Shown here in pieces: positions 9,818 to 41,303 of a stretch of 64,000 nt of DNA (the stretch's first letter is position 1; each line of letters starts with the position of its first letter). The DNA is taken from NCBI GenBank assembly GCA_002238805.1, contig MPNB01000007.1, forward strand, positions 2,536 through 66,535, written 5' to 3'. Source of the stretch: Rhodothermaceae bacterium bin80 (GTDB lineage: Bacteria; Bacteroidota; Rhodothermia; Rhodothermales; Bin80). The translations under genes were made by a program, and so were the position numbers. The notes below the pieces were generated by a model. The model was not told the DNA's origin, searched no databases, and saw only the letters and a program-made list of their open reading frames with translations.

Positions 9818-10582
9818 ATGCCCTCAAACACTCTCAGAACGACGTTGACCTTCAATATATGGACCTTTGGAAGAGGCGCCACTTGGATGCTTTTTTCAAT
9901 TGCATTGTTTACTTCATGTGGGATGTCAGACGAAATTCGATTATTTAATGGAGAGTCGCTTGAAGGCTGGGAGGGGCCACCTACTGTTTTCAGGGTGGAG
10001 CAGGGAGCCATTATTGGGGGCACCTTAGAAGTACCTTTAGATGAAACTGGTTATTTGTGTACGGAAGAGACCTATGACAATTTTATTTTAACGTTGTCCG
10101 CAAAATTTGTAACTCATGGTGCAAATATTAATGGAGGCATAAGCTTTAGAGCTAAACGCGTGACCAACTCCAATGAAGTAATGGGATACCAAGCTGACAT
10201 AGGATATTTGGATAGCAATGCGATCCCCATATTCTCTGATTACACACCTGCTGATACAACAGGCCTGTATCCTCTATGGGGTAGCTTGGTAGATGAAAAT
10301 CGGGATGATATCACACGATACCCGAGACCTGATATTTTTCCTGCCATAATCCTTAAGGTGGCGAAAAAAGAGCTGATTGAGGAAATTATTGACCCGTATG
10401 ATTGGAATGAGATTGCTATCAAGGCCTCTGGAATAGAAATTGAAATTAAAATCAACGGAGTTACAACGGCTGAATTTGCAGAAACCTACGATATACCTTC
10501 AAACGGTAGTATATGCTTACAAGCACACTCAGGAGGACCATATGAAATATGGTATCAAGACATTGTAATAAACCAATTATAA
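9818..10582 (+). CDS. DUF1080 (3-keto-disaccharide hydrolase-like) lipoprotein
   Basis: An internal ATG at 9818 gives a signal with lipobox (MLFSIALFTSCG). DUF1080 hallmarks follow: LFNGESLEGWEG, FRVEQGAIIGG, YDNFILT, NGGISFRA and GYQADI. The upstream 85 codons of the track ORF look non-coding. Confidence 0.8.
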   Translation: MPSNTLRTTLTFNIWTFGRGATWMLFSIALFTSCGMSDEIRLFNGESLEGWEGPPTVFRVEQGAIIGGTLEVPLDETGYLCTEETYDNFILTLSAKFVTHGANINGGISFRAKRVTNSNEVMGYQADIGYLDSNAIPIFSDYTPADTTGLYPLWGSLVDENRDDITRYPRPDIFPAIILKVAKKELIEEIIDPYDWNEIAIKASGIEIEIKINGVTTAEFAETYDIPSNGSICLQAHSGGPYEIWYQDIVINQL

Positions 10583-26328: not shown

Positions 26329-27165
26329 ATGCATCAACTGAAACGAATCGCTCCGACTACAAGTAGTCACGCGTTGGATCAGTATTTAACCAAGCCGGCG
26401 GTTGTTAGCCAATGCCTCGCTCAATTAGACGACCTTTCTCGTTTTGATCTGGTGCTTGAGCCAGCAGCAGGTGATGGTGCATTCCTCAACAAGATCAATC
26501 ACCCTAACAAGGTCGGGATCGATATAGATCCACAGCACGGGGATGTATTGAAGGCAGATTGGCTCCAATACGAAGTAGATGAGGAGTGGAAACGTGTGCT
26601 AGTCGTTGGTAATCCACCTTACGGGCGATACCATAAACTGTCATCTGCTTTCCTTCGACGGGCTATGTCATTTCCCAATATCCACACCATTGCTTTCATT
26701 CTGCCCAATGTGTACCGAAAACACACACGGCAGCGCATAATTCCGGAGGAATGGCGCATTGTGTCGATCACAGGTTTAGGGCGTGACTGTTTCACACTGG
26801 ACGGTGGGGACTATCATGTACCGACCAGTTTTTTTGTTATGGAGAAGTCAGAGGGGCCAGATCTAAGGGTTCGACTCCCCGATAAGGTTACGGGCACACA
26901 GGATTTTGATTTTGTCACGCGCAAAAATTTTGATGTATTCGTTTTTGGGGCCTCTCCTAGGCGTGTAATTACTAACCCTACGCCAAACAACAGGGGGTAT
27001 TATTTGAGAAGCAAGGTGCCGGTTCAGACATTGATTGAAAGAATCAAGAGTGTGAACTGGGAGGGTAATTCATGTGCAAATGGTGGGGTGTACTGGCTGA
27101 ACAAATATGAATTTGTCGAGCAGTATCAAGTCCATCATGAAGGGAATAGTACCAAGGCAGTCTGA
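26329..27165 (+). CDS. putative N6-adenine DNA methyltransferase (NPPY class), solitary
   Basis: SAM motif I is LEPAAGDGAF and the catalytic motif IV is VVGNPPYG, about 55 residues later. The protein is small (278 aa) and no nuclease gene is adjacent. Confidence 0.6.
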   Translation: MHQLKRIAPTTSSHALDQYLTKPAVVSQCLAQLDDLSRFDLVLEPAAGDGAFLNKINHPNKVGIDIDPQHGDVLKADWLQYEVDEEWKRVLVVGNPPYGRYHKLSSAFLRRAMSFPNIHTIAFILPNVYRKHTRQRIIPEEWRIVSITGLGRDCFTLDGGDYHVPTSFFVMEKSEGPDLRVRLPDKVTGTQDFDFVTRKNFDVFVFGASPRRVITNPTPNNRGYYLRSKVPVQTLIERIKSVNWEGNSCANGGVYWLNKYEFVEQYQVHHEGNSTKAV

Positions 27166-28977: not shown

Positions 28978-29757
28978 GTGCAGTTAAAAGATAAGACGAT
29001 AATTGTCACAGGGTCAGCAGGTGGTATAGGTCGAGCTATTGCACTTGCTTGCGTCCAGGAGGGTGCGCAAGTGCTTTTAGTGGATCGTAATGAGGTTGGC
29101 CTGCGTGAGACGAACGAGATATTGGGGCAGCGCAGCAGCGTGTATGTTGATGATCTATTGGATACCGCATCTGCGACTCGTATTGTCAAAGCTGCGGTGG
29201 ATCGTTTTGGCGTGCTTCATGGGATAGTGAATAATGCAGCGCTCTTAACAAGATCCAACATTGAAACCACGACCCCGGAGCTTCTTGCAAGGGTGTTTAA
29301 AGTAAACGCCAGGGCCCCAATGCTTCTGATCCAGGCAGGACTTAAGTACCTAACTGAAAGTAAGGGAAGTGTCCTCAATATCGGGTCAGTTAATGCGTAC
29401 TGTGGAGAGCCACCGCTGTTGGCCTACAGTATGTCCAAAGGTGCCTTGATGACCATGACGCGGAATCTGGGGGACAGCCTGCATGCGGAATACGGGATAC
29501 GGGTGAATCAGATCAATCCGGGTTGGGTTCTGACCGACCACGAGTTCGAGATCAAGGTGGCCGACGGATTACCGGAAAACTGGCCGAGCCGAATACCGCG
29601 CGATATAGCTCCCTCAGGAGGATTGGTCCCTCCTGAAACCATTGCTGCAGCTGCGGTCTATTGGCTGAGTGATAACTCCCGCCCAATAAGTGGTACGGTT
29701 ATGGATTTAGAACAATATCCTGTTATTGGACGGAATCCTGTTAAGGAGGTAGTGTGA
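28978..29757 (+). CDS. SDR family oxidoreductase
   Basis: Motifs are VTGSAGGIGRAIA (TGxxxGxG), NNAA and YSMSKGAL (YxxxK). The start codon is GTG. Confidence 0.9.
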   Translation: MQLKDKTIIVTGSAGGIGRAIALACVQEGAQVLLVDRNEVGLRETNEILGQRSSVYVDDLLDTASATRIVKAAVDRFGVLHGIVNNAALLTRSNIETTTPELLARVFKVNARAPMLLIQAGLKYLTESKGSVLNIGSVNAYCGEPPLLAYSMSKGALMTMTRNLGDSLHAEYGIRVNQINPGWVLTDHEFEIKVADGLPENWPSRIPRDIAPSGGLVPPETIAAAAVYWLSDNSRPISGTVMDLEQYPVIGRNPVKEVV

Positions 29758-30035
29758 TTCGTTTTTTTTGTGATCCTTAGGATGGCTAAGGGCCCCATGT
29801 AGGTGCAGCGAATGGGAACTCGACTTCCGTGGTGGAGATCTTCCGTTAGCCGGGTTCAAAGTTCAGGCGATTTGCGATTATTTGAGAATTGAGTTAAAAT
29901 TTTCAAGTACCGTTGCCGGCATGACAAACGAGTTTTCGATAATAACACAGCGACCACGAATGTATGGAGTGCAAGAATCAGGCAGGACTCATGAGCTGCC
30001 GTACGACAAGGGTAGGACTAGTTTAGTTGTCAGGT
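29262..30035. repeat. left copy of the direct repeat bracketing the defence island (intact 3' end of the SDR gene plus ~280 bp downstream)
   Basis: It aligns by eye with 39893-40425, for example ccggagcttcttgcaagg, ctcaatatcgggtca, atgtccaaaggtgc, gatggctaagggcccc, ctcgacttccgtggtggaga, agttttcgataat.acacagcg and atgagct.c.gta.gacaaggg. Confidence 0.8.
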
Positions 30036-30257: not shown

Positions 30258-32087
30258 TTATGTATCAGGTGAGATTCCCTCCTTTGTTGGCATGAAGTAG
30301 CACCAGAAATCTCCGGTCAATTGTTTGTCTATTTCGGGTAAATATCGTTCGAGATAAGTCCAGAAGTCTTCCTTCTTTGCCCATTCGGAAGGGTTCTGAA
30401 TTGGCCTATCATCGAGATACAGGATATTCTTGGCAGTTTTTGCGATCAGGGCAAGTTGGCTTACAAATGAGTCGTTGACAATTTGCTCTTTCCAGACCTT
30501 TCGGTAATTTAGGACCATATCTCTATTTTTCCCAAGAGAACTGGCTGTTGAGAGCGTATAGGCAACGATATTGGCCCGGTAGCCACCTCGATTGCGGTAC
30601 CAATCCTGACGTGAAACCATGCGTTCGGTAGCCTTGAAAACGATGCCGCGGGCAATGATCCGTTGATAATAATCTTTACTGAATTGTTCAGAAGATTCCT
30701 CCCACTTCTCTTCTATTCGCTGCATGTACCGGATGAAATTCTTCTGTGCTCCCAGATTTACCCAATGTGGTTTTTCATCCCAGACATTTTCGAATTTAGC
30801 GAGGTCGGTTTTTGTGATTTTTTTGGGATACTTAGCCCTGAAGCGCTTCTTTTCTGCATGTGTTAGTCTGGATTGTGCGTCTGCATACTGCCCCCGAGAG
30901 CGTTCATAGAACCACTTAGTTTCGTTTAGTTCACCTTCAATAGCGGGTGCCCATATGCGCCGCGAGAGTTTTTCTATTTCAATATGGAATGGATGGTTTG
31001 ATCGGAGATCCGGGATGCTTACTTTGTTCTGTGTATTCGCATATTTAGCGATATTCTGTACTACTTCTGGACCAAGGTTATCACTGATCTCGGAAATTTT
31101 CATCTGAACAAAAACCTGTGATAGATCCGGAGCATTTTTTAATTGGGATGTGTGATAAAGTGATACCATTGTCTGTCCTCCATTCACAATCTGGAGATCA
31201 CGAATATGAATGATTTGACTCCTGTCTTCATTGAGCTGTATATCCCGTGCGGTGGCGGTTATGCCATTGTTGTAGGCAAAAAATCTGTGTGGTTCCTTCA
31301 GAATCGTGTTACGAATTCCCTTGTTCACATTTCCGCGTGCCTGCAGGAAGCAACGCACGTTCTGCTCCAAAAGGCGGGCTCCATATTCTTCATACAAACC
31401 AGCTAGGATTTTTCCAGAAATAACGGCAAGATATGCTTGAAAAGCGTTGGAGCCCACATGTGCTCTAAGACAGGGTAACCCTCGTTCAAACACGGCAAAA
31501 AGGTCCACATCCAGTGGCTCCCGCCCGCCCCGTGAACAGTGTTGGCGATGCAGGCGTGAAATATCCCAGATAGAGTAAACCGCTTTAACACCGCTCAAAT
31601 CCTGATTTTCGATTGCCTTACTGTGAGTACTGAGATATCGCTCGGAAGATAAAATGAAGTTGACGCGTCGAATCCGGTCCTTTTGATCATAGATCCTGCG
31701 AGCCAATTGATACTCAGGTGATGTTTCATCAAAATCCAGGTAGAGTAGATCATTTTTCGAAGTGAGGAAAAACCGGCGAATTTGTTTGAACCCATTTTCA
31801 TAGTCTCTCTTATTGAGTGGTTCAAGGGTTTGTCTGTTCTCAAAATCTGCAAGATGTAAATCCAGGATAGTCTTCCCTTCATGGAAAAAGTATCCGTCGA
31901 CCTTCATACTACCCCTACGGCCTCGACGGTAATGGCAGTGTTCAAATCCATGTAAATCACCAGTTTCAATCAACTCTTCCGAGACTTTGTCAAGAAAAGC
32001 ATTGCGCTGAAACTCCCCATGGGTTTTTGCATCAATCTGTAATTGCTGATGGAACTCCTTAAAATACTCGTCACGTGTCATTTGCAT
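30258..32087 (-). CDS. AIPR (abortive-infection phage-resistance) family protein
   Basis: The 609-aa product has the typical AIPR N-terminus (TRDEYFKEFHQQLQIDAKTHGEFQRNAFLDKVSEELIETGDL) and core (FAYNNGITATA, IVNGGQT). Confidence 0.8.
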   Translation of the reverse strand: MQMTRDEYFKEFHQQLQIDAKTHGEFQRNAFLDKVSEELIETGDLHGFEHCHYRRGRRGSMKVDGYFFHEGKTILDLHLADFENRQTLEPLNKRDYENGFKQIRRFFLTSKNDLLYLDFDETSPEYQLARRIYDQKDRIRRVNFILSSERYLSTHSKAIENQDLSGVKAVYSIWDISRLHRQHCSRGGREPLDVDLFAVFERGLPCLRAHVGSNAFQAYLAVISGKILAGLYEEYGARLLEQNVRCFLQARGNVNKGIRNTILKEPHRFFAYNNGITATARDIQLNEDRSQIIHIRDLQIVNGGQTMVSLYHTSQLKNAPDLSQVFVQMKISEISDNLGPEVVQNIAKYANTQNKVSIPDLRSNHPFHIEIEKLSRRIWAPAIEGELNETKWFYERSRGQYADAQSRLTHAEKKRFRAKYPKKITKTDLAKFENVWDEKPHWVNLGAQKNFIRYMQRIEEKWEESSEQFSKDYYQRIIARGIVFKATERMVSRQDWYRNRGGYRANIVAYTLSTASSLGKNRDMVLNYRKVWKEQIVNDSFVSQLALIAKTAKNILYLDDRPIQNPSEWAKKEDFWTYLERYLPEIDKQLTGDFWCYFMPTKEGISPDT

Positions 32088-33058
32088 TTGTTCATATTCC
32101 AGATAGTTTCAATTGGACAAATAAAAGGTTCTGCGGCATCAATCTGTAGTGTATATCTTACATTTTGAAGCCCTCTAGACAGTTCGGATCGGACAATTCG
32201 AGGGAACTCATCAGTAATCCGATAGACACATGTTTCAGCAACTTGAAATGAAGGGCTGTCGTAGTGCTGGAGTTCTGCATAACCTGCTGTAGCCAGTTTA
32301 ATCTGATACTCATCGAGTGTAGAATCCCCGCTCAGATCGTTTTCGATTCTCCGTACCATTTCGTTGAGAGACAGGGCAGCGGGTAACTCAGTGCTCTCAA
32401 TAATGCGTTCTACCGTCAAAAACAGCCACTCGGCTGGGCTTTCCAACTGGTCCTCAGAGGAGATATGGACAAGATTAGGACCTTTGTTCGAAATTGCTTT
32501 TATCTCCACAGCCGCGTTCTCGAATACAAAGTCCTGATTCCCACCCTTTGGTCCGATCCATGCATCCAACGCATCACTCTGGCTGAGCTTATTGATGTAG
32601 AGGGACCGAAGAAAGTACAGCTCTGCAAAAAGGCCTCTCACCTCAGCGGGCGACAAAAGTTGAGGTCTTTCCCCAGCAAGAAACCGTTGCCAGCGCTTCA
32701 ATTGATTCAGTGCGGTCGTCAGAGCAGTTCTGGAGTCAGACGTATTGCTGAGACTCCGCACCAGCGTTTTGCATAGAGCATGGAACAGGTCAAGATTGAT
32801 ATGGCTGACCAATGTTATGATCAAGGTTTGTGCATGGCTTCTGGGGCGCTGCCGAAGATCAATATCAATTCCCTGAATGTTCATATTTGCTTTGAAGAAA
32901 GCATTTCGGTGATCTCCGTCAAGTTCAGCAACCAGGAGACAGTGTCCGTGTACGTCTTTACCCCAATAGATGGGAAGCAGTCCATCAGCATTGATTCTTC
33001 GGACGTTGTAGTCTACATTTGGCTGCTGAATGTCGTCCCAAGGAGTGGAATAGGCCAT
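32078..33058 (-). CDS. PD-(D/E)XK motif protein (DUF4420-like nuclease fold)
   Basis: The 326-aa product carries a candidate nuclease motif, GGNQDFVFENAAVEIKAIS (D...E.K). It overlaps the AIPR gene start by 10 nt. Confidence 0.7.
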   Translation of the reverse strand: MAYSTPWDDIQQPNVDYNVRRINADGLLPIYWGKDVHGHCLLVAELDGDHRNAFFKANMNIQGIDIDLRQRPRSHAQTLIITLVSHINLDLFHALCKTLVRSLSNTSDSRTALTTALNQLKRWQRFLAGERPQLLSPAEVRGLFAELYFLRSLYINKLSQSDALDAWIGPKGGNQDFVFENAAVEIKAISNKGPNLVHISSEDQLESPAEWLFLTVERIIESTELPAALSLNEMVRRIENDLSGDSTLDEYQIKLATAGYAELQHYDSPSFQVAETCVYRITDEFPRIVRSELSRGLQNVRYTLQIDAAEPFICPIETIWNMNKCK

Positions 33059-33097
33059 AAATTCGGTTTAGACTAGCTTCGTTTTCATGATCAGGTT

Positions 33098-35779
33098 TTA
33101 ATCTTCACCGACATCGAAATCATCATCGCGCATGCCATGGGTGGCAAATAATTCCAACCGGATGTAAACTGGATTTGCTACGATCTCCACCTCGGTGATA
33201 TAATCATCTGGAGGAAAGCTCATGCCAATTGTTGGAATACGGATATTTTCCAGTGACGAACCGGTTTTTCCAGTCAAGACATGTATCATAAGAAGGGGGC
33301 ATGTTCGAGTTGCACGATAATCCGCGTCAATGACATTTCCTACGCGATTATTCTGTTTTGCTCGATCAAAGGCTTCATACACTTGTTCCTTTGAAAGTCC
33401 AAGTCCTTCGTCTCCTCGGCTTGCGGCCCGACCTTTATTCAAAACCCACTTCCCGTCTTTAATCGTAGATTTTCTCTCTTGGGCTCCCAAGTGTAGTAAT
33501 TTGGATGGATCCTCTCTACTTTCAATCGAAACCAGAACGACATCACATGTCTGATATTTATCAGATGTTTTCCGCAAATAATTGATAACACCGGTCTTTT
33601 TGTGTTCGAGAGACTTATCAGTGGTGAATTGAGTTAGGAAGCGCTCAACCTTCTCTGTAGGAACATCGCGCACGATCCATCCCTTAGTACTTCCCTTACC
33701 CGGTCTCTTTGCGCGCTCACGGTTTTCCTCTGTCCACGTCTCCAATATGAGTTCTTCATTTTTGGAATTCAGAACAGGGTCCGTGGGCAGAATTGTGAAT
33801 TCCTGAAGTCGTCCGCTATAATTATACCGCAGAGTGCGCTTCTCCGCATCTTGCATTTTCCTTGGTGAAGTAATCAGAAGCTGATCGGGATGCGTTTCCA
33901 CATATAGTCCAAATTCCCTGGGTGTCTTGCCCATTTGGCGCATATCGCGAACCTGATCTACCAATTCGCGGGTAGCTTCAGCTACATGTGAATACCACGA
34001 AATTGCATCTCCAGAGAGATGGACACGGCAAAGGTCGTCGTATCCAAGCCGGTATCCAAACCATCGTCCCATCTGCATCAGGGTATCGTACATACGGGTG
34101 TTGCGATAGACATAGCTCACGCATAATCCTTCAATAGTGAGTCCACGCGAAAGACTCAATCCTCCAACTGCGATGGCTGTAAGTCCACTTCCACTGGCTT
34201 CATGTTTCTTATAGTCCAACCTGTCATCAGACTGACCGTTAATCATAAACAGGCGGGTACTGGTTGCTGCTTTTTGGAGTTCAGCCTTGACATCTACCCA
34301 AGAGTGACCACAATACGGGAATGCCCGGTCGAAAGCCTTTTTCAGCTTTTGCATGCTTGCATTGCGGGAGGAAATTGGATCCCGCATTGCGTAATTCGCC
34401 TGCACAGCCTCTTTGACTTCTCTCAGATATATGCTTACCAAATCACGGATTTGTTTTTGCACGTTGACAAATCGAGACACATTGATCATCATGGAACAGT
34501 GGTGTGCCTGATAGCCCCGTAGGTTTCGAATGGCTCTTGCAACGATGAATTCGTTTATGGCTGTGTATAGGCTGGCAGGGAGCACAGAAATTTCATGATC
34601 TTTCTTGTGGCTCAAAGGCAATACATCATCGCAGTCGGTGACCGGGATGGTCACCTGACTGGGGACATCTTCAGTAAGAAACACTCTCTCTGGTCCAAAG
34701 TAGGTGGTTGGCGCATCTAGGAAGTAGATAAAATCGCGGGGGAACAGATCATCTCTCACCTCGTCATCGTAAGCATCCGGGTTAATGAAAATGTTTGCAA
34801 ACGGTGTGGCGGTGTATCCTACGAAGCTGGACTTTGCAAACAGTCTCAGGATCTGTCGGATTAACCGATTGGTCCGGGTGGGATCATGCTCAAGTTTGTT
34901 CGTGTTGATCGAAGCATGATCTGCTTCGTCATCAATCAGAAGCATCGGGACTGTTTCGATTTGGTCAGCCCCTTGGGCGTTCATATCCTTCAGCCAGTGA
35001 TAGAGGGAGGTCAACACATTCACGTTTTTTTTGACGACCAGAATAATCGGTCTGCTAAAGTCATTGAGTCGCCACCCGCTTTGTCGGGCTACTTGCTTAT
35101 TAAAATCGTTGCTAACGTTAGTAAGTGTTACTGGGTGAGGGAATTGAGAGGTTCGCCCCAGATCAGTTTTTCCAACGCCAATTATTTGTCTTGATTCCGA
35201 GTGCCGCCCTACAAATCCCTCGTCAATGCGCTGTTGAGTCTGGCTTCGGAGCACATTATGGATTCCGGCGATCACAATGATGAACTTGTATCCTGCGTCC
35301 GCAGCCCGGGTGATCAGTGCAAGATAGTTTGCTGTTTTCCCCGACTGTACATTGCCAATCACCAAGCCACGCCGGTCCCATATGCCATCAGAGATCGGGT
35401 TCTGCAACATTCCGAGGATTTTCTCACTCACGTCTCGCAGTGACTGGCACATCCTATTAGACCATCCAGAAGAGTCCAAATAGTCGAAATAAGCATCCGA
35501 ATAGATCCAATCAATGTTTGTGCGTTTGTTAATCCAGTCAGAATCATGGCCGGTGTCCTTCTGAATCAGGGAAACTCCACTTCCCATCCGGGTAGTGATT
35601 GCCATAAGTGCCCGGTCAACGATCGGTTTCAGGTTTCCTCCATATCCAAAGGGTTTTGCAAGCTGCTCTGCTTTGGATCTGGCTTCCTCATTTGATGGCG
35701 TAGAGTCAAAAGCATGATTTAGAGCCTTAATCAGCGTGCTCACAAGGTCATTTTCCAATTCAAGCGTATGTGCCATCAT
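33098..35779 (-). CDS. Z1 domain protein (SF2 helicase/ATPase-like)
   Basis: Walker A is GNVQSGKTANYLALI and the DEAD-like Walker B is LLIDDEADHAS. The preferred start is the ATG at 35779, which forms an ATGA overlap with the upstream stop at 35776-35778. The track ORF begins at a TTG at 35818. Confidence 0.8.
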   Translation of the reverse strand: MMAHTLELENDLVSTLIKALNHAFDSTPSNEEARSKAEQLAKPFGYGGNLKPIVDRALMAITTRMGSGVSLIQKDTGHDSDWINKRTNIDWIYSDAYFDYLDSSGWSNRMCQSLRDVSEKILGMLQNPISDGIWDRRGLVIGNVQSGKTANYLALITRAADAGYKFIIVIAGIHNVLRSQTQQRIDEGFVGRHSESRQIIGVGKTDLGRTSQFPHPVTLTNVSNDFNKQVARQSGWRLNDFSRPIILVVKKNVNVLTSLYHWLKDMNAQGADQIETVPMLLIDDEADHASINTNKLEHDPTRTNRLIRQILRLFAKSSFVGYTATPFANIFINPDAYDDEVRDDLFPRDFIYFLDAPTTYFGPERVFLTEDVPSQVTIPVTDCDDVLPLSHKKDHEISVLPASLYTAINEFIVARAIRNLRGYQAHHCSMMINVSRFVNVQKQIRDLVSIYLREVKEAVQANYAMRDPISSRNASMQKLKKAFDRAFPYCGHSWVDVKAELQKAATSTRLFMINGQSDDRLDYKKHEASGSGLTAIAVGGLSLSRGLTIEGLCVSYVYRNTRMYDTLMQMGRWFGYRLGYDDLCRVHLSGDAISWYSHVAEATRELVDQVRDMRQMGKTPREFGLYVETHPDQLLITSPRKMQDAEKRTLRYNYSGRLQEFTILPTDPVLNSKNEELILETWTEENRERAKRPGKGSTKGWIVRDVPTEKVERFLTQFTTDKSLEHKKTGVINYLRKTSDKYQTCDVVLVSIESREDPSKLLHLGAQERKSTIKDGKWVLNKGRAASRGDEGLGLSKEQVYEAFDRAKQNNRVGNVIDADYRATRTCPLLMIHVLTGKTGSSLENIRIPTIGMSFPPDDYITEVEIVANPVYIRLELFATHGMRDDDFDVGED

Positions 35780-37260
35780 GTCTGCCTCCCCCCCAGATAG
35801 TTCTCTACGATGTTCCAATGCTGATCAAAGAGATGTGTCGTTCGGATGAAATCACGAAACTTGTCTGCGTCAGAGCATATACGCTCCGGAAGAGTGTCGC
35901 TCAGCAGCTGAAGTCGCTCCATGACGATTTTTTCTTTTCTGCTTAACGTGTGGACCTGCTTCGGATCATCATTCCAGTCAATGCTGATCATCTCCACTGG
36001 AAGATCTTCTCCAATTCTATCGAGGAGCAGCTTCAGTTGCGATTGCCCGACTTGATTCAGTTGCTGATCCAATTCCTGTACCAGCGGATGATCTGCATTA
36101 AGCACATAGCGGACTCCTTTGGTCGAATCAGAGAACCTCTCCCACAGTGGATATGGATTCTTTTCCGAGATTAGCCGCTGTCCCCGTCCCGTGTAGACCC
36201 TCTTGCTTCGGATAGTAATTTTATCCAAAATCTGGTTTAGACGATCACGGACCGGGCGGGGAGGCTGAACGCGCGATTTTTTAATATCAATGGTCCACCA
36301 GCGATCAAGAGAGCTGGGAAAATCAATCCGAACTCGTGCCAGTTGGGCAGCTTTATTTTTGGAAATAAGCCGAAACCATCCTCCCCATGCAACCAGACGG
36401 CAATTCCGATACACATAAACTCCCTGGTTTTCAAAAAAACTGCTGTAAGTCTTGTAGAGGTCGTATTTCTGCACAGATAGTTTGCTGTGATGGGGTAGGA
36501 TATATCCTTGCAGCCGAACCTCATGAGATCCAATGGAAATGCGTTCAAGCGGTAGACGCTGCGTAGCTGTATGATCTCGACAAAATGGATCAAAAGCCTT
36601 AACACGGTGCCCATTTACGGATATTTTCAACCGACTGCACCAAGGGACATCTCCCTTCATGAATTGGTGAAACACCAGCGCAAGATGTTGTGTAACCGCA
36701 GCCAATTTCTTGCTTACAATCCGTTGCCGTTCCTGTCCTTTGGTGTTTCCGAAAAGCCGATCCAGATTACGCCAAAGAACTAGCGTCCCCTGCTCGGGTA
36801 ATTCATCAAAGAATGGGAGGCTGTAAATCTCTTCCTCATCCAGAAGGGAGATAATCCAGTCGTCCGAGTGTTCCACTACATCAAGATTCCATTCGGCCGC
36901 GTTTAGCTGGCCGTTTTTTCGACTCACAACGGTAAGATGCCTGCATTGGGATAAGGAGGCTGTTTTCAGACCCAGTCCAAACTTTCCGAGATCATGAGAA
37001 GATCTCATTCGATTTCGGTCAGCACCGCCATGCCGCATGGCATGGATGATTTCATTATTCCCCATTCCCTGGCCATTATCAATGATGGCCAGCGTAGGCT
37101 GGTCGGCATCCGGGATGCAGTAAACATCTATTTTTCCTGCGCCGGCTGAAATGCTGTTATCCACCAGATCCGCGATCGCAGTTTCGAGTGAGTACCCGAT
37201 ATCACGCATGGACGCAGACAGGGATGCTGCACTTGGCGGGAGGCGTATTTCACGTGGCAT
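35776..37260 (-). CDS. GHKL (HATPase_c_3, MORC/MutL-like) ATPase
   Basis: Bergerat-fold motifs are present: N-box IADLVDNSISAGA, G1 IIDNGQGM and G2 GKFGLGLKTAS. Confidence 0.85.
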   Translation of the reverse strand: MPREIRLPPSAASLSASMRDIGYSLETAIADLVDNSISAGAGKIDVYCIPDADQPTLAIIDNGQGMGNNEIIHAMRHGGADRNRMRSSHDLGKFGLGLKTASLSQCRHLTVVSRKNGQLNAAEWNLDVVEHSDDWIISLLDEEEIYSLPFFDELPEQGTLVLWRNLDRLFGNTKGQERQRIVSKKLAAVTQHLALVFHQFMKGDVPWCSRLKISVNGHRVKAFDPFCRDHTATQRLPLERISIGSHEVRLQGYILPHHSKLSVQKYDLYKTYSSFFENQGVYVYRNCRLVAWGGWFRLISKNKAAQLARVRIDFPSSLDRWWTIDIKKSRVQPPRPVRDRLNQILDKITIRSKRVYTGRGQRLISEKNPYPLWERFSDSTKGVRYVLNADHPLVQELDQQLNQVGQSQLKLLLDRIGEDLPVEMISIDWNDDPKQVHTLSRKEKIVMERLQLLSDTLPERICSDADKFRDFIRTTHLFDQHWNIVENYLGGRQT

Positions 37261-37681
37261 GTTCGACCTCCTGCAGGTGGCATGCTACCCGGCGAGTGGC
37301 CTGTTCCAGGTCCGCATTGATTTCACACTCCCAGACAATGATGATCTGCCAGTCTAGGTTTTTGAGTGCCTCCACATTCCGTTTGTCCCGCTCGAGTGTA
37401 CTGCGGAATTTTTTCAGCCAGAAGGCCTGATTGGATTTTGGGGTGGCCGCGTGCTTACAACCATCGTGGCGATGCCAGAAACAACCGTGTACGAAGACGA
37501 CCGTACGGTATTTATGTAGCACGATATCGGGCTTTCCTGGCAGTTTTGTCTCATGAACCCTAAACCGGAACCCGAGTCTATGAAGGCTTGACCGAAGTTT
37601 GCACTCTGGTTCCGTATTACGTCCCTTGATGCGGGACATATTCCAGCTGCGTTGCTTTTTGGAGAGGTGATCTGCCATCAT
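37250..37681 (-). CDS. vsr: very short patch repair endonuclease
   Basis: Vsr hallmarks are present: RSWNMSRIKGRNTEPE, LPGKPDIVL and VFVHGCFWHRH. Its start forms an ATGA overlap with the methyltransferase stop at 37678-37681. Confidence 0.9.
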   Translation of the reverse strand: MMADHLSKKQRSWNMSRIKGRNTEPECKLRSSLHRLGFRFRVHETKLPGKPDIVLHKYRTVVFVHGCFWHRHDGCKHAATPKSNQAFWLKKFRSTLERDKRNVEALKNLDWQIIIVWECEINADLEQATRRVACHLQEVEHAT

Positions 37682-39232
37682 ATTCTCCCTCTGGCAACAT
37701 CCAGCACGTCTGCGACGACATCCCCAATTTGGCGAGCTAAATATGGCGGTACAGCATTCCCGATCTGGCGATACTGTTCGGTTCGGGGTCCCTCAAATTT
37801 GTAATTGTCCGGGAACGTCTGCAGCCGGGCTGCTTCACGCACAGTCAGGCTCCTGCATTGTGCCAGATCATAGTGGATATAGTAATGACCATCTTTAGCA
37901 ATGTGCGCTGTGATTGTGGAGGCAACCCGCTTTGGCAACTGCACCTTGAATCGGTCCACGAATTTTTCCCCTACCTTTCCATCTACAACATCACGGTGAT
38001 TCGGCAACAGAGCCGGTGGAAAGTCCTGTAATTTTGGACTCCTGCCGGTCACATGAGCAAAGGCTGCCGCGAACGCATAGCGCCTGAGGTCTGCCGTCAT
38101 GTGTGCACGCGCATCGTGCCCCGTCAATGTGCGTATGCGCGGATCATATATAAATTCCACTGCTCCACCTGTATGCACTGACTGCGAGGGATAAGAGGTT
38201 GCCTTACGCTTCAGCTGGCGTGGAGTGAATTTGAAGAGAGTCCCCACTTTGCTGAGTATGGCTTCAGTGTGAGGATGATCTGTAAAATCTACTTCCTCCA
38301 AGGAGCTAATTGCTTTTGTCCATGCCTCAGGAGTATCTGGCTTATCTGTAATTCCACTGCGAATTTTGGGCAGTTGCCCGATAATTTGCTCCACGGTTGG
38401 AGGTTTTTCACATGTTAGCTGCGGAGGTTGAATATCAAGATCGCTACGGATTCCCAAGGCGAAGACTCGATGTCGGGCTTGTGGTACACCATGCAATTCG
38501 GACTTGATCAGGAAGTCATGTGGCTTAATTCCATCGAACAAGCCGACTTGATTTGGGCAGTAAAGTCCGTGCAGCTCATACGTCGGAGATATATCCGTAG
38601 ATGCCCCCAATGCACGGCATGGATTCCTGAGATCTTCCCAGATCATCTGGATCATGGACTTCCCGTTATATTTAGCAGAAAGGAGTCCCTTCACATTCTC
38701 CATCACGAAGAGGGGAGGTCTGTGCTCAGCAATAACCCTCAGGTATTCTTTGTAGAGAAGGTGGCGCTCGTCCTGCTCGAATCCGGGCATTTTTTGCATA
38801 CGCGACCGGCCTGCTACTGAGTATGCTTGGCATGGTGGCCCGCCGACGAGCACCCATAGGGGGACATTTGCTAATCGCTCAGCGATGATCTTGCGGACAC
38901 TGTCATGATTTTGAGGTCCGAGTGTGATATGCAGAGCAGACTTCTCGGCATGATGTGAGGCGGAAGGATGAGACTCAAAGAGTTCAGCAGAGTCAATAGC
39001 GCCGTCCAGATAGCGATAATAGGCTTCTGGGGCTTTACCAAGTGGGAATGATCTAAAGAAATGTCTTAGGCGAAGCGTCTTATGCGCCCAAACGTCTTTT
39101 TCAATAGATGCGGCTAGAAAAAATCGGGGGGGGGGTAAATTGTTTATTGCTGCCGGTGGCGGCAGTAAACCCTTCGCCCAATCCGCCAGGTCCTGCGAAA
39201 AGATCAACGACAGGATATGGTGATATTTCCAT
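37678..39232 (-). pseudogene. dcm: DNA (cytosine-5)-methyltransferase, reading frame split at a C10 tract (OFF phase, inactivated, or homopolymer sequencing error)
   Basis: The downstream frame carries motif IV GGPPCQAYS, ENV (MENVKGL) and motif X QIGNAVPP. Motif I (VVDLFAGPGGLGEGF) lies in a 43-codon ORF that starts at the ATG at 39232 in a different frame. The two frames meet at the C10 run (G10 on the plus strand, 39126-39135). Confidence 0.85.
39126..39135. repeat. G10/C10 homopolymer tract inside the 5' end of dcm (slipped-strand candidate)
   Basis: The tract was read directly as aaatc gggggggggg taaat. Confidence 0.9.
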
Positions 39233-39892
39233 TAAAAACAGAATTGACGGGGCGTGCAGTTATCCGTGTGCTCTGGCAATATAGTGAATTTAGATACTTA
39301 GCAGCAATCCGGGCATGAGTTTAATTGAGTTCAGAATCCGCCGTGAGCCGACTTCGATCCATGGGTCCATTAGAATTTTTCGGCGCTTCGAAGACGCACC
39401 GGAATTCGGGATTTCTCGAGGGGATGCTTTCATGTCCAGATAGTGTCAATCCGAGGACTATTTCTCGTGCCATTCTGCCAAAAGGGCTTCCATCATATGT
39501 TTCGACAGAGGCCTGATTTGGGAAGATACGGATCGCATTTTACCGTAGTCTAAGTTCGAAAAACGGACGCGCAAGCACCTTATACTACGGAACTGGCCTG
39601 GAACTAGATGGGGATATTCGGCACGACTGTGGTCTGATCACCTCCCTCGTCCAATATCTTCACTGCTTGGGGGCTCGAATTTGTCTGGAATGATTCAAGA
39701 ATTCTGTGTGCTTCTTCATTGGGTTTTACAACGAAATAGCGATGCCGCTGTGCGCTAGGAAACGACTCGGGATCATGTGGGACAACTCCAGAGGTACACC
39801 CGAAATCACCCTTGCAACCCCATGGAGCTCGTGCTGCTGCAGCCCGGTAAAAAACGTCCACTAGGTCCAGTGCGATTCCCCATCTGCAACCA

Positions 39893-40425
39893 TAAAACCG
39901 CAACACCGGAGCTTCTTGCAAGGATTTTCAACGTAACACCAGAACTCCAATGTTTCTGATCTAGGTAGGACTTGAGTATCTAACGGAAAGCAAAGGAGTG
40001 TTCTCAATATCGGGTCAATCCATGCGCACTGTGGGGGAGCTACTACTGCACTGTTGGTTTACGGTATGTCCAAAGGTGCTTGATGAGTATGACGCGAAAT
40101 CCTGTTGAGGAGGTAGTATGATCCGTTTTTTGTGATCCTCAGGATGGCTAAGGGACCCGTGTAGGTGTAGCAAATGTGAACTCGACTTCCGTGGTGGAGA
40201 TATTATGTTAGCCGGGTTCAAGCTCGGGTATTTCGTGATTATCGAGAATTGGATAGAAAAATCTTCAAGTGTCGTTGAGTATGACGAACAAGTTTTCGAT
40301 AATGACACAGCGGGCATGAATGCATGCAGCAAAAGAATCAGGAAGGGTTCATGAGCTACTGTATGACAAGGGTTGGGCCTTGCCGGCTAGTTAGGCGTAA
40401 AAGAGAATAGAGCAGTTGTCAGACT
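39893..40425. repeat. right, decayed copy of the direct repeat (SDR 3'-end remnant with a 270-bp internal deletion plus downstream sequence)
   Basis: It is colinear with 29262-30035 at roughly 75-80% identity by eye. The segment 29468-29737 of the left copy is missing, and the junction lies at the microhomology cggaatc (29461-29467 and 29731-29737). The remnant frame reads ...KTATPELLARIFNV..., compared with TTTPELLARVFKV in the intact gene. Confidence 0.8.
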
Positions 40426-40460: not shown

Positions 40461-41303
40461 ATGAGGTCCGTAGCACGTGATTTTACCATCGCATTAATAA
40501 GTGAGATTTTCAGTTCAGAGAGTGAGCTAATCGCATGCCTTGAGAGCGCACGTGATCAGGGCGCGGTATTGGCGATCTTGCCGGAGCTACCGTTCAATTT
40601 GTGGTCCCCAGCTACGAGGATAGCAAGCCCAGAGGACGCGGAGGGGCCGGGAGGTTGGCGAGAAAAGATGCAACGAGCTGCTTCCAAAAAAGCAGGTATA
40701 GCAGTATTGGGAGGGATCATTCGCGAAGCTAGTAATGGTCTTCGAACAAATCTGGCGTTGCTGTCAGATTCACGCGGCCGCATAGTAGGGTCGTCTGCGA
40801 AACACGTCCTGCCAGATGAAGAAGGGTTTTGGGAGTGTGATCATTACCAGCCATCTACGGATCCTCCACGTGTGGTTGAATTTAAGGGGACTAAGCTGGG
40901 TATTCAGATATGCTCGGATGCTAATCGACCTACCGCAGGACAGCTTCTCGCTGCACAAGGTGTGCAGGTAATCCTGGCACCTCGTGCGTCAAGTCCTTCC
41001 TCATGGAAACGATGGCGACTGGCTTACCAAGCCATGGCCTTGACCTGTTCGGCGTGGGTGGTATCGGTCGGGCGCCCTCGCCCGGAGTTCGGGGTGGACA
41101 TTGGGGGCCCGTCACTGGTAGTGGATCCCATGGGCGAAGTTGTTTTAGAAACAACAGATCGCATTGCTGTGACAGCATTGGATTTGCGCGCCGTAGAGGG
41201 TGCCCGGCGGTCATACCCCGGCTACCTTGCATGGCCCGCAAAAACGTACATGGCCGGATGGGCTGAAATTCATGAGAATCACGTTAAGCAGACAGTTACA
41301 TGA
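40461..41303 (+). CDS. carbon-nitrogen hydrolase (nitrilase superfamily) protein
   Basis: The Glu-Lys-Cys triad contexts are AILPELPF, AKHVLPDEE and LGIQICSDA. Confidence 0.8.
   Translation: MRSVARDFTIALISEIFSSESELIACLESARDQGAVLAILPELPFNLWSPATRIASPEDAEGPGGWREKMQRAASKKAGIAVLGGIIREASNGLRTNLALLSDSRGRIVGSSAKHVLPDEEGFWECDHYQPSTDPPRVVEFKGTKLGIQICSDANRPTAGQLLAAQGVQVILAPRASSPSSWKRWRLAYQAMALTCSAWVVSVGRPRPEFGVDIGGPSLVVDPMGEVVLETTDRIAVTALDLRAVEGARRSYPGYLAWPAKTYMAGWAEIHENHVKQTVT

What the first reader, a model, noticed from the sequence alone, without database searches (positions are those of the whole stretch)
30258..39232. Six-gene Dcm-Vsr-GHKL(MORC-like)-Z1-PD-(D/E)XK-AIPR operon: a predicted, functionally uncharacterised restriction/defence system
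All six genes lie on the minus strand and are translationally coupled. There are ATGA overlaps at 37678-37681 and 35776-35779, 10-11-nt overlaps at 37250-37260 and 32078-32087, and one 39-nt gap. The motifs read from the sequence are as follows. The C5-MTase shows motifs I, IV, ENV and X. Vsr is clearly recognisable. The Bergerat-fold ATPase shows DLVDNSISAGA, DNGQGM and GKFGLGLKTAS. The SF2/Z1 ATPase shows GNVQSGKT and DDEADH. The PD-(D/E)XK protein shows DFVFENAAVEIK. The sixth gene is an AIPR protein. As I recall, comparative-genomic work on MORC-like ATPases in R-M contexts (Iyer, Abhiman and Aravind, 2008) and the Pfam notes for Z1 and AIPR describe this association with cytosine methylases. 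I know of no experimental demonstration of what is sensed, which protein cleaves, or why an Abi-type AIPR protein is attached. It combines modification plus mismatch repair with an ATPase/helicase/nuclease core and a possible abortive-infection arm.
Basis: partly seen in the sequence, partly recalled or inferred. Interest (0 to 1): 0.8.

Follow-up and report, generated by a model that had tools for sequence, protein, structure and literature searches.

The report
Mza-like defence operon, switchable methylase
This is a horizontally acquired anti-phage gene cluster of an already known type (a cytosine methylase and its repair enzyme joined to relatives of the tested "Mza" defence proteins), and its unusual feature is a run of ten C's that breaks the methylase gene and behaves like an on/off switch.

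Summary
The six minus-strand genes, their overlaps and all quoted motifs are real. HMMs support every family call. The system is not uncharacterised. Its four effector genes (GHKL ATPase, Z1, DUF4420, AIPR) are clear homologues of MzaB, MzaC, MzaD and MzaE of the experimentally validated Mza anti-phage system. They score far below NCBIfam's equivalog cut-offs, and Dcm-Vsr stands where MzaA would be. This methylase-linked form was predicted in 2008 and 2022. It is conserved in at least 50 of 64 genome loci across many phyla.

The new element is in dcm. Motif I and the rest of the gene lie in different frames, joined at a C10 tract (39126-39135); C9 would be in frame. The same tract, at the same codon, is 5 to 13 C long in relatives. 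It is out of frame, always by +1, in seven lineages and in frame in others. Two assemblies identical over 4,640 bp differ only by C10 versus C9. Frameshifted alleles remain under purifying selection (dN/dS about 0.1).

This makes dcm most likely a slipped-strand phase-variable gene, here in the OFF length, upstream of five intact, translationally coupled genes.

Verdict: new variant of a known kind; moderate interest.

The parts
30258..32087 (-). AIPR-family protein, MzaE-like (609 aa)
   Evidence: Pfam AIPR 1.8e-94 and AIPR_N 3.8e-36. PADLOC MzaE 1.8e-72. NCBIfam MzaE 2.6e-98, but 330 bits against a cut-off of 1050. The NNG and VNGGQT motifs are invariant in 70 loci. No PDB relative by sequence or by fold.
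32078..33058 (-). DUF4420 putative PD-(D/E)XK nuclease, MzaD-like (326 aa)
   Evidence: Pfam DUF4420 2.1e-62. PADLOC MzaD 1.9e-20. NCBIfam MzaD 3.7e-35, 122 bits against a cut-off of 420. E146, D176, E185 and K187 are invariant in 75 loci and sit on helix 137-156 and strands 177-190 of a confident AF2 model (pLDDT 89.7).
33098..35779 (-). Z1-domain SF2-type ATPase, MzaC-like (893 aa from ATG 35779)
   Evidence: Pfam Z1 6.5e-73 and a weak ResIII hit. PADLOC MzaC 1.5e-129. NCBIfam MzaC 6e-160, 534 bits against a cut-off of 1500. Walker A GxVQSGKT, IDDEAD, YTATP and QMGRWFGYR are conserved in 97-100% of 80-83 loci.
35776..37260 (-). GHKL (MutL/MORC-like) ATPase, MzaB-like (494 aa)
   Evidence: Pfam HATPase_c_3 4e-33. 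PADLOC MzaB 2.7e-80. NCBIfam MzaB 7.5e-91, 305 bits against a cut-off of 850. The N-terminus resembles MORC2 (E 2.3e-4) and MutL (E 4.9e-4) in the PDB. D..DN..A, DxGxG and GxFGLGxK are invariant in 76 loci.
37250..37681 (-). Vsr very-short-patch T:G mismatch endonuclease (143 aa)
   Evidence: Pfam Vsr 2.2e-30. TIGR00632 at 143.7 bits, above its cut-off of 97.85.
37678..39126 (-). dcm, post-tract segment (482 codons; motifs IV PPCQ, VI ENV, X GNAVPP and the large variable region)
   Evidence: Pfam DNA_methylase 1.3e-40. Open for 482 codons, while the other two frames carry 20 and 29 stops. dN/dS is 0.09-0.18 against relatives.
39126..39135 (-). C10 homopolymer tract (G10 on the + strand) where the two dcm frames meet; C9 would be in frame
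   Evidence: It is the only run of 9 or more bases in the window. An iid model expects 0.009 G/C runs of 9 or more per 1.55-kb gene. The same site is C5 to C13 in relatives.
39101..39232 (-). dcm 5' segment: ATG 39230-39232, motif I DLFAGPGGLGEGF, read-through of the tract to a premature TGA at 39101-39103 (43-aa product)
   Evidence: Translation. The single SNP against strain L084 is synonymous in this frame.
39277..39302 (-). Degenerate copy of a conserved upstream promoter-like element. Relatives have TTGCCAGGAACCTGGAATTyAyTATACT, with two CCWGG sites in a palindrome, about 55-70 nt before the ATG; the window has GCTAAGTATCTAAATTCACTATATTG.
   Evidence: Alignment and scan of upstream regions; coordinates.
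29237..30016 (.). Left copy of the island-flanking direct repeat (3' part of the adh_short gene 28978-29757 plus about 260 nt downstream)
   Evidence: the repeat finder families D1-D5 and D8, 72-91% identity; blastn.
39868..40376 (.). Right copy of the flanking direct repeat (a degenerate pseudo-copy of the adh_short 3' end), between the dcm upstream region and CN_hydrolase (40461-41303)
   Evidence: The spacing of 10.36-10.63 kb brackets the lower-GC stretch (0.44-0.48 against about 0.50).

Best explanation
A roughly 10.4-kb acquired island in a Rhodothermales-like bacterium carries a two-module defence operon. Module 1 is Dcm, a C5-cytosine methylase, plus Vsr, which repairs the T:G mismatches left by 5mC deamination. 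Module 2 is a four-protein effector set homologous to MzaB-E of the validated Mza anti-phage system: a GHKL ATPase, a Z1 SF2-type ATPase, the DUF4420 PD-(D/E)XK nuclease that most likely cuts DNA, and an AIPR protein of unknown biochemistry. The most likely logic is restriction-modification-like, with 5mC at a short motif marking self DNA and the ATPase/nuclease complex attacking invading DNA. Superimposed on this, dcm carries a hypermutable poly-C tract just after motif I that changes length by slipped-strand mispairing. In this genome it is C10, one C too many, so full-length methylase is not made from the DNA as written. All five downstream genes are translationally coupled behind about 1.45 kb of then-untranslated dcm mRNA, so the OFF length probably lowers expression of the whole operon. 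Alternatively, Dcm may be needed for restriction, as Mod is in Type III systems. Either way the OFF state would be safe. What is shown: gene content, homology, conservation, motif integrity, the frameshift, tract-length polymorphism and purifying selection. What is inferred: self/non-self discrimination by 5mC, which protein cleaves (by analogy with MzaD), polarity on the downstream genes, and reversibility of the switch.
For: Identity. Pfam, PADLOC and NCBIfam hits cover all six proteins. Catalytic motifs are 97-100% conserved in 70-83 loci. Of 64 loci, 59 have the core and 50 have all six genes. Loci that lack an orthologous Dcm mostly carry a different C5-methylase beside the core, which argues that methylation is functionally coupled to the core. 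Mza function. Anti-phage activity and MzaD nuclease activity are reported in the papers read. A GCAGC modification motif occurs in methylase-encoding mza strains. Switch. The window has C10, and repair to C9 gives an intact 517-aa methylase. At the same codon the tract is C9 ON (L085, L092, L094), C10 ON (L039), C12 ON (L091), C13 ON (L089), C10 OFF (window, L084, L086, L087/L088, L007, L093), C11 OFF (L005), and C5/C6 where the tract has decayed (L006, L004). L093 and L094 are identical over 4,640 bp apart from C10 versus C9. One 90%-identity protein cluster holds both 520-aa ON and 512-aa OFF forms. The tract is the only homopolymer of 9 or more bases in each locus that carries it, except L067, which also has an A10 run. 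Selection. dN/dS is 0.10-0.18 between OFF lineages. Two strains that both carry C10 differ by 10 synonymous and 3 nonsynonymous changes, P=7e-5 against neutrality. The five downstream genes have dN/dS 0.05-0.21 between OFF lineages. Precedent. A G tract in the methylase gene pglX phase-varies the Pgl defence system, and slipped-strand switching of R-M methylases is reviewed in the paper read.
Against: All four sequence variants of this species' Dcm, on at least 12 contigs from several samples, are the 509-aa OFF form; no ON allele was found for this species. That fits a fixed state less awkwardly than rapid switching. All seven OFF lineages are +1 and none is -1, which could point to recoding rather than random slippage. 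Assemblies give consensus sequence only, so within-population heterogeneity was not observed directly. L093 and L094 could derive from overlapping read sets or differ by a homopolymer assembly error. The upstream promoter-like palindrome conserved in relatives is mutated in the window, which fits silencing or decay. No experiment exists on any Dcm-Vsr-linked member. The window proteins fall far below the NCBIfam Mza equivalog cut-offs. Foldseek did not confirm a nuclease fold for DUF4420.
Confidence: 0.6

Rival explanations
1. Decay. The system is being lost in this species. The +1 frameshift is a fixed inactivating mutation at a mutational hotspot, the promoter element has degenerated, and the operon is silent and on its way to becoming a pseudogene cluster.
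For: Every sampled contig of this species has the OFF form. The conserved upstream palindrome is mutated in the window and in L084. Related Rhodothermales MAGs show real degradation: dcm is interrupted by an insertion of about 1.4 kb and carries a stop in L004, the operon is split by insertions in L067, and L005 has a second disruption.
Against: Two C10 strains differ by 10 synonymous and 3 nonsynonymous changes in the shifted frame (P=7e-5). The 482-codon frame is open, while the other frames have 20-29 stops. All five downstream genes are intact with overlaps preserved, and their dN/dS is 0.05-0.21 against other OFF lineages. ON and OFF alleles coexist in the sister lineage.
Confidence: 0.17
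2. Recoding. C10 is the functional genotype. Full-length Dcm is made at a low level by +1 ribosomal frameshifting on CCC-C proline codons, or by RNA polymerase slippage on the C run, which sets a low methylase-to-effector ratio.
For: All seven OFF lineages carry exactly +1 nt; the chance of this is about 1% if +1 and -1 were equally likely. C10 is stable across samples of the window species and across two samples for L087/L088. Both frames stay under purifying selection in strains that share the frameshift. It is established knowledge that CCC-C sites and polyproline stalls are prone to +1 slippage, and that long homopolymers allow transcriptional slippage.
Against: Close relatives are simply in frame with C9, C12 or C13, so recoding is not required. 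There is no zero-frame stop adjacent to the tract (the stop lies 8 codons downstream) and no conserved stimulatory element was seen. No Rfam element is present. A +1 bias is also expected from known length-dependent slippage biases in G/C tracts (stated from memory of Campylobacter work, not tested here).
Confidence: 0.13
3. Uncoupled modules. The MzaBCDE-like effector does not use 5mC for self-recognition, like canonical mzaABCDE, which is not described with a methylase in the papers read. Dcm-Vsr is an accessory or epigenetic (phasevarion-type) module whose loss is harmless.
For: In the papers read, mzaABCDE is described with mzaA as a sigma factor and no methylase, and it protects E. coli. 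OFF dcm coexists with intact effectors in at least four lineages. L038, L074 and L079 show no obvious methylase next to the core.
Against: A C5-methylase is linked in 50 of 64 loci and is replaced by non-orthologous C5-methylases in most of the rest. Linkage that persists through replacement argues for functional dependence. dcm is first in the operon and its stop overlaps the vsr start.
Confidence: 0.25
4. Artefact. The extra C is a sequencing or assembly error at a homopolymer and the gene is really intact.
For: Homopolymers are error-prone. Some relatives come from low-coverage or long-read assemblies (for example L090, contig name tagged 7x). The JGI contig L002 ends 31 nt from the tract and has an A-to-C change beside it.
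Against: The same total length is recovered in independent assemblies from ENA, NCBI, JGI and Logan on at least 12 contigs, and for L087/L088 in two samples. The window contig carries a k141-type record name, which suggests a short-read k-mer assembly.
Confidence: 0.05

Closest known systems
MzaABCDE anti-phage system (Salmonella/E. coli; called validated in PMC9523054 and attributed to the Gao 2020 screen in the table of PMC13223576; studied against T4 in bioRxiv 10.1101/2022.06.16.496414)
   Same: The four consecutive same-strand genes have the same domains in the same order: GHKL ATPase, Z1, DUF4420 PD-(D/E)XK and AIPR. HMM E-values run from 1e-20 to 1e-160 against the PADLOC and NCBIfam MzaB-E models. 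The catalytic D/E/K residues of the MzaD-like protein are invariant.
   Different: There is no MzaA; Dcm and Vsr occupy the upstream position. Scores are about one third of the NCBIfam equivalog cut-offs. PMC9523054 reports about 20% identity between such methylase-linked systems and mzaBCDE. No member of this branch has been tested experimentally.
Putative Z1 / DUF4420 / cytosine-methylase system, types I and II (Miller et al. 2022, PMC9523054), and the MORC/paraMORC - SF2 helicase - REase - Dcm - Vsr - AIPR operons (Iyer, Abhiman and Aravind 2008, PMC2292703)
   Same: The gene content is exactly as those comparative-genomic papers describe: a Z1 protein of about 925 aa, a PD-(D/E)XK protein, a cytosine methylase, a repair endonuclease, AIPR and a MORC-like ATPase. 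The wide and patchy phyletic spread also matches.
   Different: Those papers are predictions only. The window combines features split between Miller's type I (repair endonuclease) and type II (AIPR + MORC). Neither text as read mentions a homopolymer tract or a frameshifted methylase.
Methylase-encoding mza loci of Listeria monocytogenes (PMC10687267; bioRxiv 10.1101/2024.07.12.603236)
   Same: An mza-type effector set is linked to a DNA methylase, and the modification is detectable genome-wide at a 5-nt motif, GCAGC. This supports the view that the methylase of such systems is active and site-specific.
   Different: The phylum is different and the sequences were not compared here. The recognition motif of the window's Dcm is unknown; there is only a weak hint for CCWGG.
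Simple-sequence-repeat phase variation of defence methylases: the G tract in pglX of the Streptomyces Pgl/BREX-type system (PMC4365076), and Type I/III mod phasevarions (PMC12707154)
   Same: A G/C homopolymer sits inside the methylase ORF of a multi-gene defence operon. ON and OFF lengths occur among near-identical sequences. In those systems the methylase is required for restriction, so switching it off is safe.
   Different: Here the methylase is a C5 Dcm-type enzyme in an Mza-like system, in uncultured marine Rhodothermales rather than in host-adapted pathogens or Streptomyces. Switching rate and phenotype are unmeasured. The OFF state appears fixed in this species.

Membership tests
Mza (MzaABCDE) anti-phage system | MzaB-type GHKL ATPase, MzaC-type Z1 protein, MzaD-type DUF4420 nuclease and MzaE-type AIPR protein, encoded contiguously on one strand | tested here: met
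   PADLOC MzaB 2.7e-80, MzaC 1.5e-129, MzaD 1.9e-20, MzaE 1.8e-72. The order B-C-D-E, with overlaps and one 39-nt gap, is shown.
Mza (MzaABCDE) anti-phage system | Proteins reach the curated NCBIfam equivalog cut-offs for MzaB, MzaC, MzaD and MzaE | tested here: not met
   Scores against cut-offs are 305/850, 534/1500, 122/420 and 330/1050 bits. The proteins are homologous but form a separate subfamily.
Mza (MzaABCDE) anti-phage system | MzaA present upstream | tested here: not met
   Dcm and Vsr occupy the upstream position. The two 105-aa ORFs at 39604-39921 and 40015-40332 have no PADLOC hit at E<=1.
Mza (MzaABCDE) anti-phage system | Confers phage resistance when expressed | not testable with these tools
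   Only literature on canonical Mza is available.
Dcm-Vsr cytosine modification/repair pair | C5-methylase with motifs I, IV, VI and X in a single ORF | tested here: not met
   All the motifs are present and are conserved in 63-73 loci. However, motif I is in a different frame from the rest because of the C10 tract. The sequence repaired to C9 passes TIGR00675 (136 bits against a cut-off of 100.65).
Dcm-Vsr cytosine modification/repair pair | Vsr endonuclease directly downstream of the methylase | tested here: met
   TIGR00632 scores 143.7 bits against a cut-off of 97.85. The vsr ATG overlaps the dcm TGA.
SSR-mediated phase-variable (contingency) gene | Long homopolymer inside the 5' part of the ORF, with a length that sets the reading frame | tested here: met
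   The C10 tract lies at codons 33-36, and C9 restores the frame.
SSR-mediated phase-variable (contingency) gene | Tract-length differences between otherwise identical or near-identical sequences, with both ON and OFF lengths seen | tested here: met
   L093 (C10) and L094 (C9) have 0 mismatches in 4,640 bp. Members of 520 aa and 512 aa occur in one 90% cluster. The tract ranges from 5 to 13 C across lineages.
SSR-mediated phase-variable (contingency) gene | OFF alleles remain under purifying selection and are not decaying | tested here: met
   dN/dS is 0.09-0.18 for OFF-OFF pairs, P=7e-5.
SSR-mediated phase-variable (contingency) gene | High-frequency reversible switching within a clonal population | not testable with these tools
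   This needs read pile-ups or culture. In the window species only the OFF length was found, on at least 12 contigs.
Abortive-infection system (through AIPR) | AIPR domain present | tested here: met
   PF10592 and PF22879; a weaker AbiU hit at 1.5e-24.
Abortive-infection system (through AIPR) | Infected cells arrest or die before phage release | not testable with these tools
   For canonical Mza, a preprint reports no growth arrest at MOI 0.05-5, which argues against Abi.
MORC family proper (Iyer et al. 2008) | GHKL motifs plus an S5 domain and the MORC-specific signature, as distinct from MutL and the paraMORCs | tested here: inconclusive
   The GHKL motifs are invariant. PDB sequence matches to MORC2 (2.3e-4) and MutL (4.9e-4) are equally weak and cover only residues 7-120. 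'MutL/MORC-like' is the defensible label.

The most novel reading that the evidence does not exclude
The poly-C tract is a population-level switch that can be thrown safely because Dcm is more than the self-marking enzyme. In this reading Dcm is the DNA-recognition subunit that the MzaBCDE-like effector needs in order to restrict, as Mod is for Type III Res and PglX is for BREX. One slipped C would then turn modification and restriction off together, and bet-hedging by defence switching would extend to free-living or symbiotic marine Bacteroidota-like bacteria. This would give the first mechanistic handle on how Mza-type systems choose their targets.
Probability: 0.25. Interest if true: 0.7.

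Novelty: new variant of a known kind. Interest (0 to 1): 0.5.

Why it matters
The operon itself is a further member of a widespread family that has been predicted since 2008 and whose core was shown to be anti-phage in 2020. It does not reveal a new kind of system. The value lies in a natural experiment. Several lineages carry a frameshifted methylase in front of intact, selected effector genes. That situation is impossible for a classical restriction-modification system unless restriction depends on the methylase or the whole operon is switched off together. This makes a concrete open question testable with simple C9/C10 constructs: how do Mza-type systems tell self from non-self, and what is the linked methylase for? 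It also extends simple-repeat phase variation of defence genes beyond the host-adapted pathogens in which it is usually studied.

Tried and rejected
(1) AIPR as a ParB/DUF262-like 'DGQQR' NTPase, an idea prompted by the invariant VNGGQT motif. An AF2 model (pLDDT 79.6, pTM 0.46) gave no Foldseek PDB match below E 0.28. The best weak hits were restriction-endonuclease-fold proteins (McrC 6ut7_G, AF1548, EcoT38I, Can2) and none was ParB-like. The idea was dropped and the AIPR fold remains unresolved.

(2) Confirming the nuclease fold of DUF4420 by structure. The model is confident (pLDDT 89.7, pTM 0.86). Foldseek returned only spurious kinase-lobe matches (E>=0.008, TM<=0.2). The nuclease call therefore rests on the invariant E-D-ExK residues, the Pfam family name and the published MzaD assay.

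(3) PDB sequence searches for AIPR, Z1 and DUF4420 found nothing relevant.

(4) A search for MzaA or a controller protein upstream of dcm found no PADLOC hit and no conserved small ORF across lineages.

(5) The sigma-70 promoter scan was not enriched over shuffles (14 sites against 14.8 expected). Terminator-like sites were modestly enriched (17 against 9.8), but none is obviously placed.

(6) There are no tRNA genes, and no integrase-like gene was noticed beside the island in the gene maps. There are no Rfam families in 28-42 kb.

(7) The JGI metagenome pattern scan for tract variants returned a single extra contig, L084, again with C10.

(8) A CCWGG specificity for this Dcm has only weak support: O/E 0.76, z about -3.1, the lowest of 32 interrupted palindromes, which is borderline after multiple testing.

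(9) A literature search for phase-variable AIPR or Mza systems found none.

Full report
OBSERVATION. The six minus-strand ORFs exist as described. They are AIPR 30258-32087, DUF4420 32078-33058, Z1 33098-35779, GHKL 35776-37260, Vsr 37250-37681 and dcm 37678-39232. The junctions were read directly from the sequence. The dcm TGA overlaps the vsr ATG (ATGA, 37678-37681). vsr and the GHKL gene overlap by 11 nt (37250-37260). The GHKL TGA overlaps the Z1 ATG (35776-35779); the mechanical ORF reaches a TTG at 35818, but 35779 is the coupled start. A 39-nt gap separates Z1 from DUF4420, and DUF4420 and AIPR overlap by 10 nt (32078-32087).

The ATG at 39232 opens a frame that encodes motif I (DLFAGPGGLGEGF) and ends at a TGA at 39101-39103. 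The other 482 codons, carrying PPCQ, ENV and GNAVPP, are in the +1 frame. The frames meet at a C10 run at 39126-39135, and removing one C yields an intact 517-aa methylase. This is the only homopolymer of 9 or more bases in the 64-kb window.

FAMILY CALLS. Pfam supports all six calls well above the gathering scores: AIPR+AIPR_N, DUF4420, Z1, HATPase_c_3, Vsr and DNA_methylase. PADLOC assigns the four effector proteins to MzaB (2.7e-80), MzaC (1.5e-129), MzaD (1.9e-20) and MzaE (1.8e-72). NCBIfam has equivalog models named 'MZA anti-phage system associated' for the same four proteins. They hit at E 7.5e-91, 6e-160, 3.7e-35 and 2.6e-98, but at about one third of the curated cut-offs: 305/850, 534/1500, 122/420 and 330/1050 bits. 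The proteins are therefore homologues of MzaB-E in a distinct subfamily. No MzaA-like ORF is present. The GHKL N-terminus matches MORC2 and MutL equally weakly in the PDB, so 'MutL/MORC-like' is the fair label.

WHAT IS KNOWN. Iyer, Abhiman and Aravind (PMC2292703) did describe MORC/paraMORC GHKL ATPases in operons with SF2 helicases, RE-fold nucleases, cytosine methylases, Vsr and AIPR, and proposed that they are R-M systems. Miller et al. (PMC9523054) described a 'putative defence system' built around a Z1 protein, a PD-(D/E)XK DUF protein and a cytosine methylase, with variants adding repair endonucleases or AIPR plus MORC. They noted its resemblance to 'the validated mzaABCDE system', with about 20% identity. 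A later review table attributes mzaABCDE to the Gao 2020 defence-system screen.

A preprint (10.1101/2022.06.16.496414) reports that E. coli mzaABCDE gives 10^3-10^4-fold protection against T4(C) and T4(hmC) and less against glucosylated T4. It saw no growth arrest at any MOI. Purified MzaD cut T4 DNA in vitro, and D187A and P297A weakened this activity. Listeria strains with a 'methyltransferase-encoding mza' system carry a GCAGC modification motif (PMC10687267), and REBASE lists a methylase as part of an mzaABCDE locus. The 'Abi arm' idea has no support beyond the family name. It remains true that no Dcm-Vsr-linked member has been tested.

CONSERVATION. The window is identical to an ENA metagenome contig, and the same Z1 protein occurs on 14 contigs. 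A scan of one genome per GTDB species found at least 594 Z1 relatives. The 80 best span Rhodothermales MAGs (62-67% identity), Alpha-, Beta- and Gammaproteobacteria, Desulfobacterota, Leptospira, Chloroflexi, Acidobacteria, Armatimonadota, Planctomycetes and others.

Of 64 loci with enough flank, 59 keep the GHKL-Z1-DUF4420-AIPR core and 50 keep all six genes. Twenty-nine have the window's exact order and strand, and in most of the others only Dcm/Vsr are inverted or moved to the far side. Most loci that lack an orthologous Dcm carry a different C5-methylase next to the core. Linkage that survives non-orthologous replacement argues that cytosine methylation is part of the mechanism.

The catalytic residues are 97-100% conserved in 70-83 loci. 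This covers the GHKL motifs D..DN..A, DxGxG and GxFGLGxK; the Z1 motifs GxVQSGKT, IDDEAD, YTATP and QMGRWFGYR; DUF4420 residues E146, D176, E185 and K187; and the AIPR motifs NNG and VNGGQT.

THE C TRACT. The same tract sits at the same codon position in relatives, with different lengths.
- Window, L001: C10, out of frame.
- L084, a second strain at 96% nucleotide identity: C10, out of frame.
- L002, JGI: same total length, with an A-to-C change beside the tract.
- L085 (87% aa): C9, intact.
- L086 (84%): C10, out of frame.
- L087 and L088 (74%, two samples): C10, out of frame.
- L007: C10, out of frame.
- L005: C11, out of frame; C10 would be in frame there.
- L092: C9, intact.
- L089: C13, intact.
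- L091: C12, intact.
- L039 (53%): C10, intact.
- L006: C5 and L004: C6, both in frame at this site.

Protein clusters tell the same story. Several close relatives begin with the alternative-frame N-terminus (P0001, P0003, P0009, P0013) while others are intact. In each locus that carries the long tract it is the only homopolymer of 9 or more bases, except L067, which also has an A10 run.

Most tellingly, L093 (GCA_964503085.1) and L094 (SRR8304771) show 0 mismatches over 4,640 bp and a single gap, C10 against C9. Their products, 512 aa and 520 aa, sit in one 90% cluster.

The frameshifted alleles are not decaying. dN/dS of the post-tract frame is 0.10-0.18, including OFF-OFF pairs. The window and L084, which share C10, differ by 10 synonymous and 3 nonsynonymous changes (dN/dS 0.09; P=7e-5 against neutrality). 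The one pre-tract SNP is synonymous in the motif-I frame. The five downstream genes are intact in the OFF lineages and have dN/dS 0.05-0.21.

INTERPRETATION OF THE TRACT. The pattern is the standard signature of a slipped-strand contingency locus: a conserved position, hypervariable length, ON and OFF lengths in near-identical DNA, and selection maintained on both frames. The Pgl system, whose methylase gene pglX phase-varies through a G tract, is the closest precedent. Phase-variable Type I and III methylases are reviewed in PMC12707154.

Two observations temper this reading. First, every sampled contig of the window's own species, at least 12 contigs and four sequence variants, is OFF. Second, all seven OFF lineages carry +1 and never -1. 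This leaves room for a recoding explanation, either +1 ribosomal slippage on CCC-C or transcriptional slippage. It also leaves room for recent fixation with silencing. The latter is supported by loss, in the window, of an upstream element that relatives conserve: TTGCCAGGAACCTGGAATTyAyTATACT, a sigma-70-like -35/-10 pair enclosing two CCWGG sites in a palindrome. Assembly error is unlikely given recovery of the same length from four data sources.

HOW IT MOST LIKELY WORKS. Shown here or in the literature: a site-specific C5 methylase with its deamination-repair partner; an effector set whose canonical homologue blocks phage without killing the cell; a nuclease (MzaD) that cuts DNA in vitro; two ATPases with intact catalytic motifs; and tight translational coupling.

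Inferred: 5mC marks self. The GHKL dimer and the Z1 SF2 ATPase load on or translocate along unmodified DNA and license the DUF4420 nuclease. AIPR is an essential but biochemically undefined partner. Since a classical R-M system cannot survive loss of its methylase, the viable OFF genotypes imply one of three things. The frameshift may silence the downstream genes by polarity, because about 1.45 kb of untranslated mRNA precedes five coupled genes. Restriction may need Dcm itself. Or the effector may not depend on methylation for self-tolerance. I rank the first two together as most likely.

STRUCTURE ATTEMPTS. The AIPR model (pLDDT 79.6) and the DUF4420 model (pLDDT 89.7) have no significant PDB neighbours. 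AIPR, Z1 and DUF4420 have no relevant PDB relative by sequence. No matching Mza-family component therefore appears in the PDB copy searched.

GENOMIC SETTING. The operon lies in a stretch of about 10.4 kb with lower GC (0.44-0.48 against about 0.50). It is bracketed by imperfect direct repeats of 72-91% identity. Region 29237-30016, the 3' part of an adh_short gene plus its downstream spacer, recurs at 39868-40376. This suggests insertion of a circular element by recombination at that gene. The window holds no tRNA gene, and no integrase-like gene was noticed next to the island in the gene maps examined. Relatives L085 and L086 have the operon beside the same CN_hydrolase gene.

VERDICT. The system is a methylase-linked relative of Mza that was predicted long ago, is widespread, and has an experimentally validated core. 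The locus-specific novelty is the hypervariable C tract that leaves dcm out of frame here. I class it as a new variant of a known kind, with interest about 0.5.

Noticed in passing
window 29237-30016 and 39868-40376: Long imperfect direct repeats (72-91% identity, spacing 10.36-10.63 kb) bracket the operon. The right copy is a degenerate pseudo-copy of the 3' end of the adh_short gene (28978-29757) plus its downstream spacer. This suggests Campbell-type insertion of the island. The window has no tRNA gene, and no integrase-like gene was noticed beside the island. Strain L084 has the same structure.
   Followed up: partly
window 39277-39302; L004, L005, L085-L089, L091, L092 at about 55-70 nt before the dcm ATG: Rhodothermales relatives conserve the element TTGCCAGGAACCTGGAATTyAyTATACT upstream of dcm. 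It looks like a -35/-10 promoter enclosing a palindrome with two CCWGG sites, and could be an operator or a methylation-sensitive promoter. In the window and in L084 the palindrome is mutated (GCTAAGTATCTAAATTC...).
   Followed up: partly
whole window: CCWGG is the most under-represented of the 32 interrupted 5-nt palindromes (244 observed against 323 expected, O/E 0.76, z about -3.1). This is a weak hint that CCWGG is or was a methylated or restricted site in this genome. It is borderline after multiple testing.
   Followed up: partly
window 26329-27165 (+): A solitary NPPY-motif DNA methylase ORF (278 aa; PADLOC MTase_II 3.7e-28, no Pfam hit) lies 3 kb from the operon with no nuclease gene beside it.
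   Followed up: no
window 10834-21075 (+): A single 3,413-aa ORF encodes a type I polyketide synthase (KS-AT-DH-MT-ER-KR-ACP plus a second KS). Upstream, ORF 9563-10582 has a weak match to the C-terminal end of an ISL3 transposase profile at its first 47 residues, followed by a 3-keto-disaccharide hydrolase domain.
   Followed up: no
L004 (5367-6765), L067, L005: In related Rhodothermales MAGs the same operon is visibly degraded. In L004, dcm is interrupted by an insertion of about 1.4 kb and carries a stop. In L067 the operon is split by insertions of several kb, and unrelated sequence abuts the C10 tract directly. In L005, dcm has a second disruption.
   Followed up: partly
L089 5530-8872: One relative has a second module directly upstream of dcm: a 683-aa HATPase_c_3 protein and a 434-aa C5-methylase. 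This gives tandem GHKL/methylase defence modules.
   Followed up: no
AIPR homologues: Rhodothermales AIPR proteins are 601-619 aa long, whereas almost all the Proteobacterial and other homologues listed at about 50% identity are roughly 680-698 aa. The window's clade therefore lacks a segment of about 80 aa. Alignment A1 places the extra residues at the C-terminus.
   Followed up: no
L093 1-130 and L094 1-77: Both contigs of the strain pair that differs only by C10 versus C9 end about 75-130 nt upstream of the dcm ATG, and both lack the CCAGGAACCTGG palindrome. The assembly break at the promoter region may reflect a repeat or a rearrangement there.
   Followed up: no
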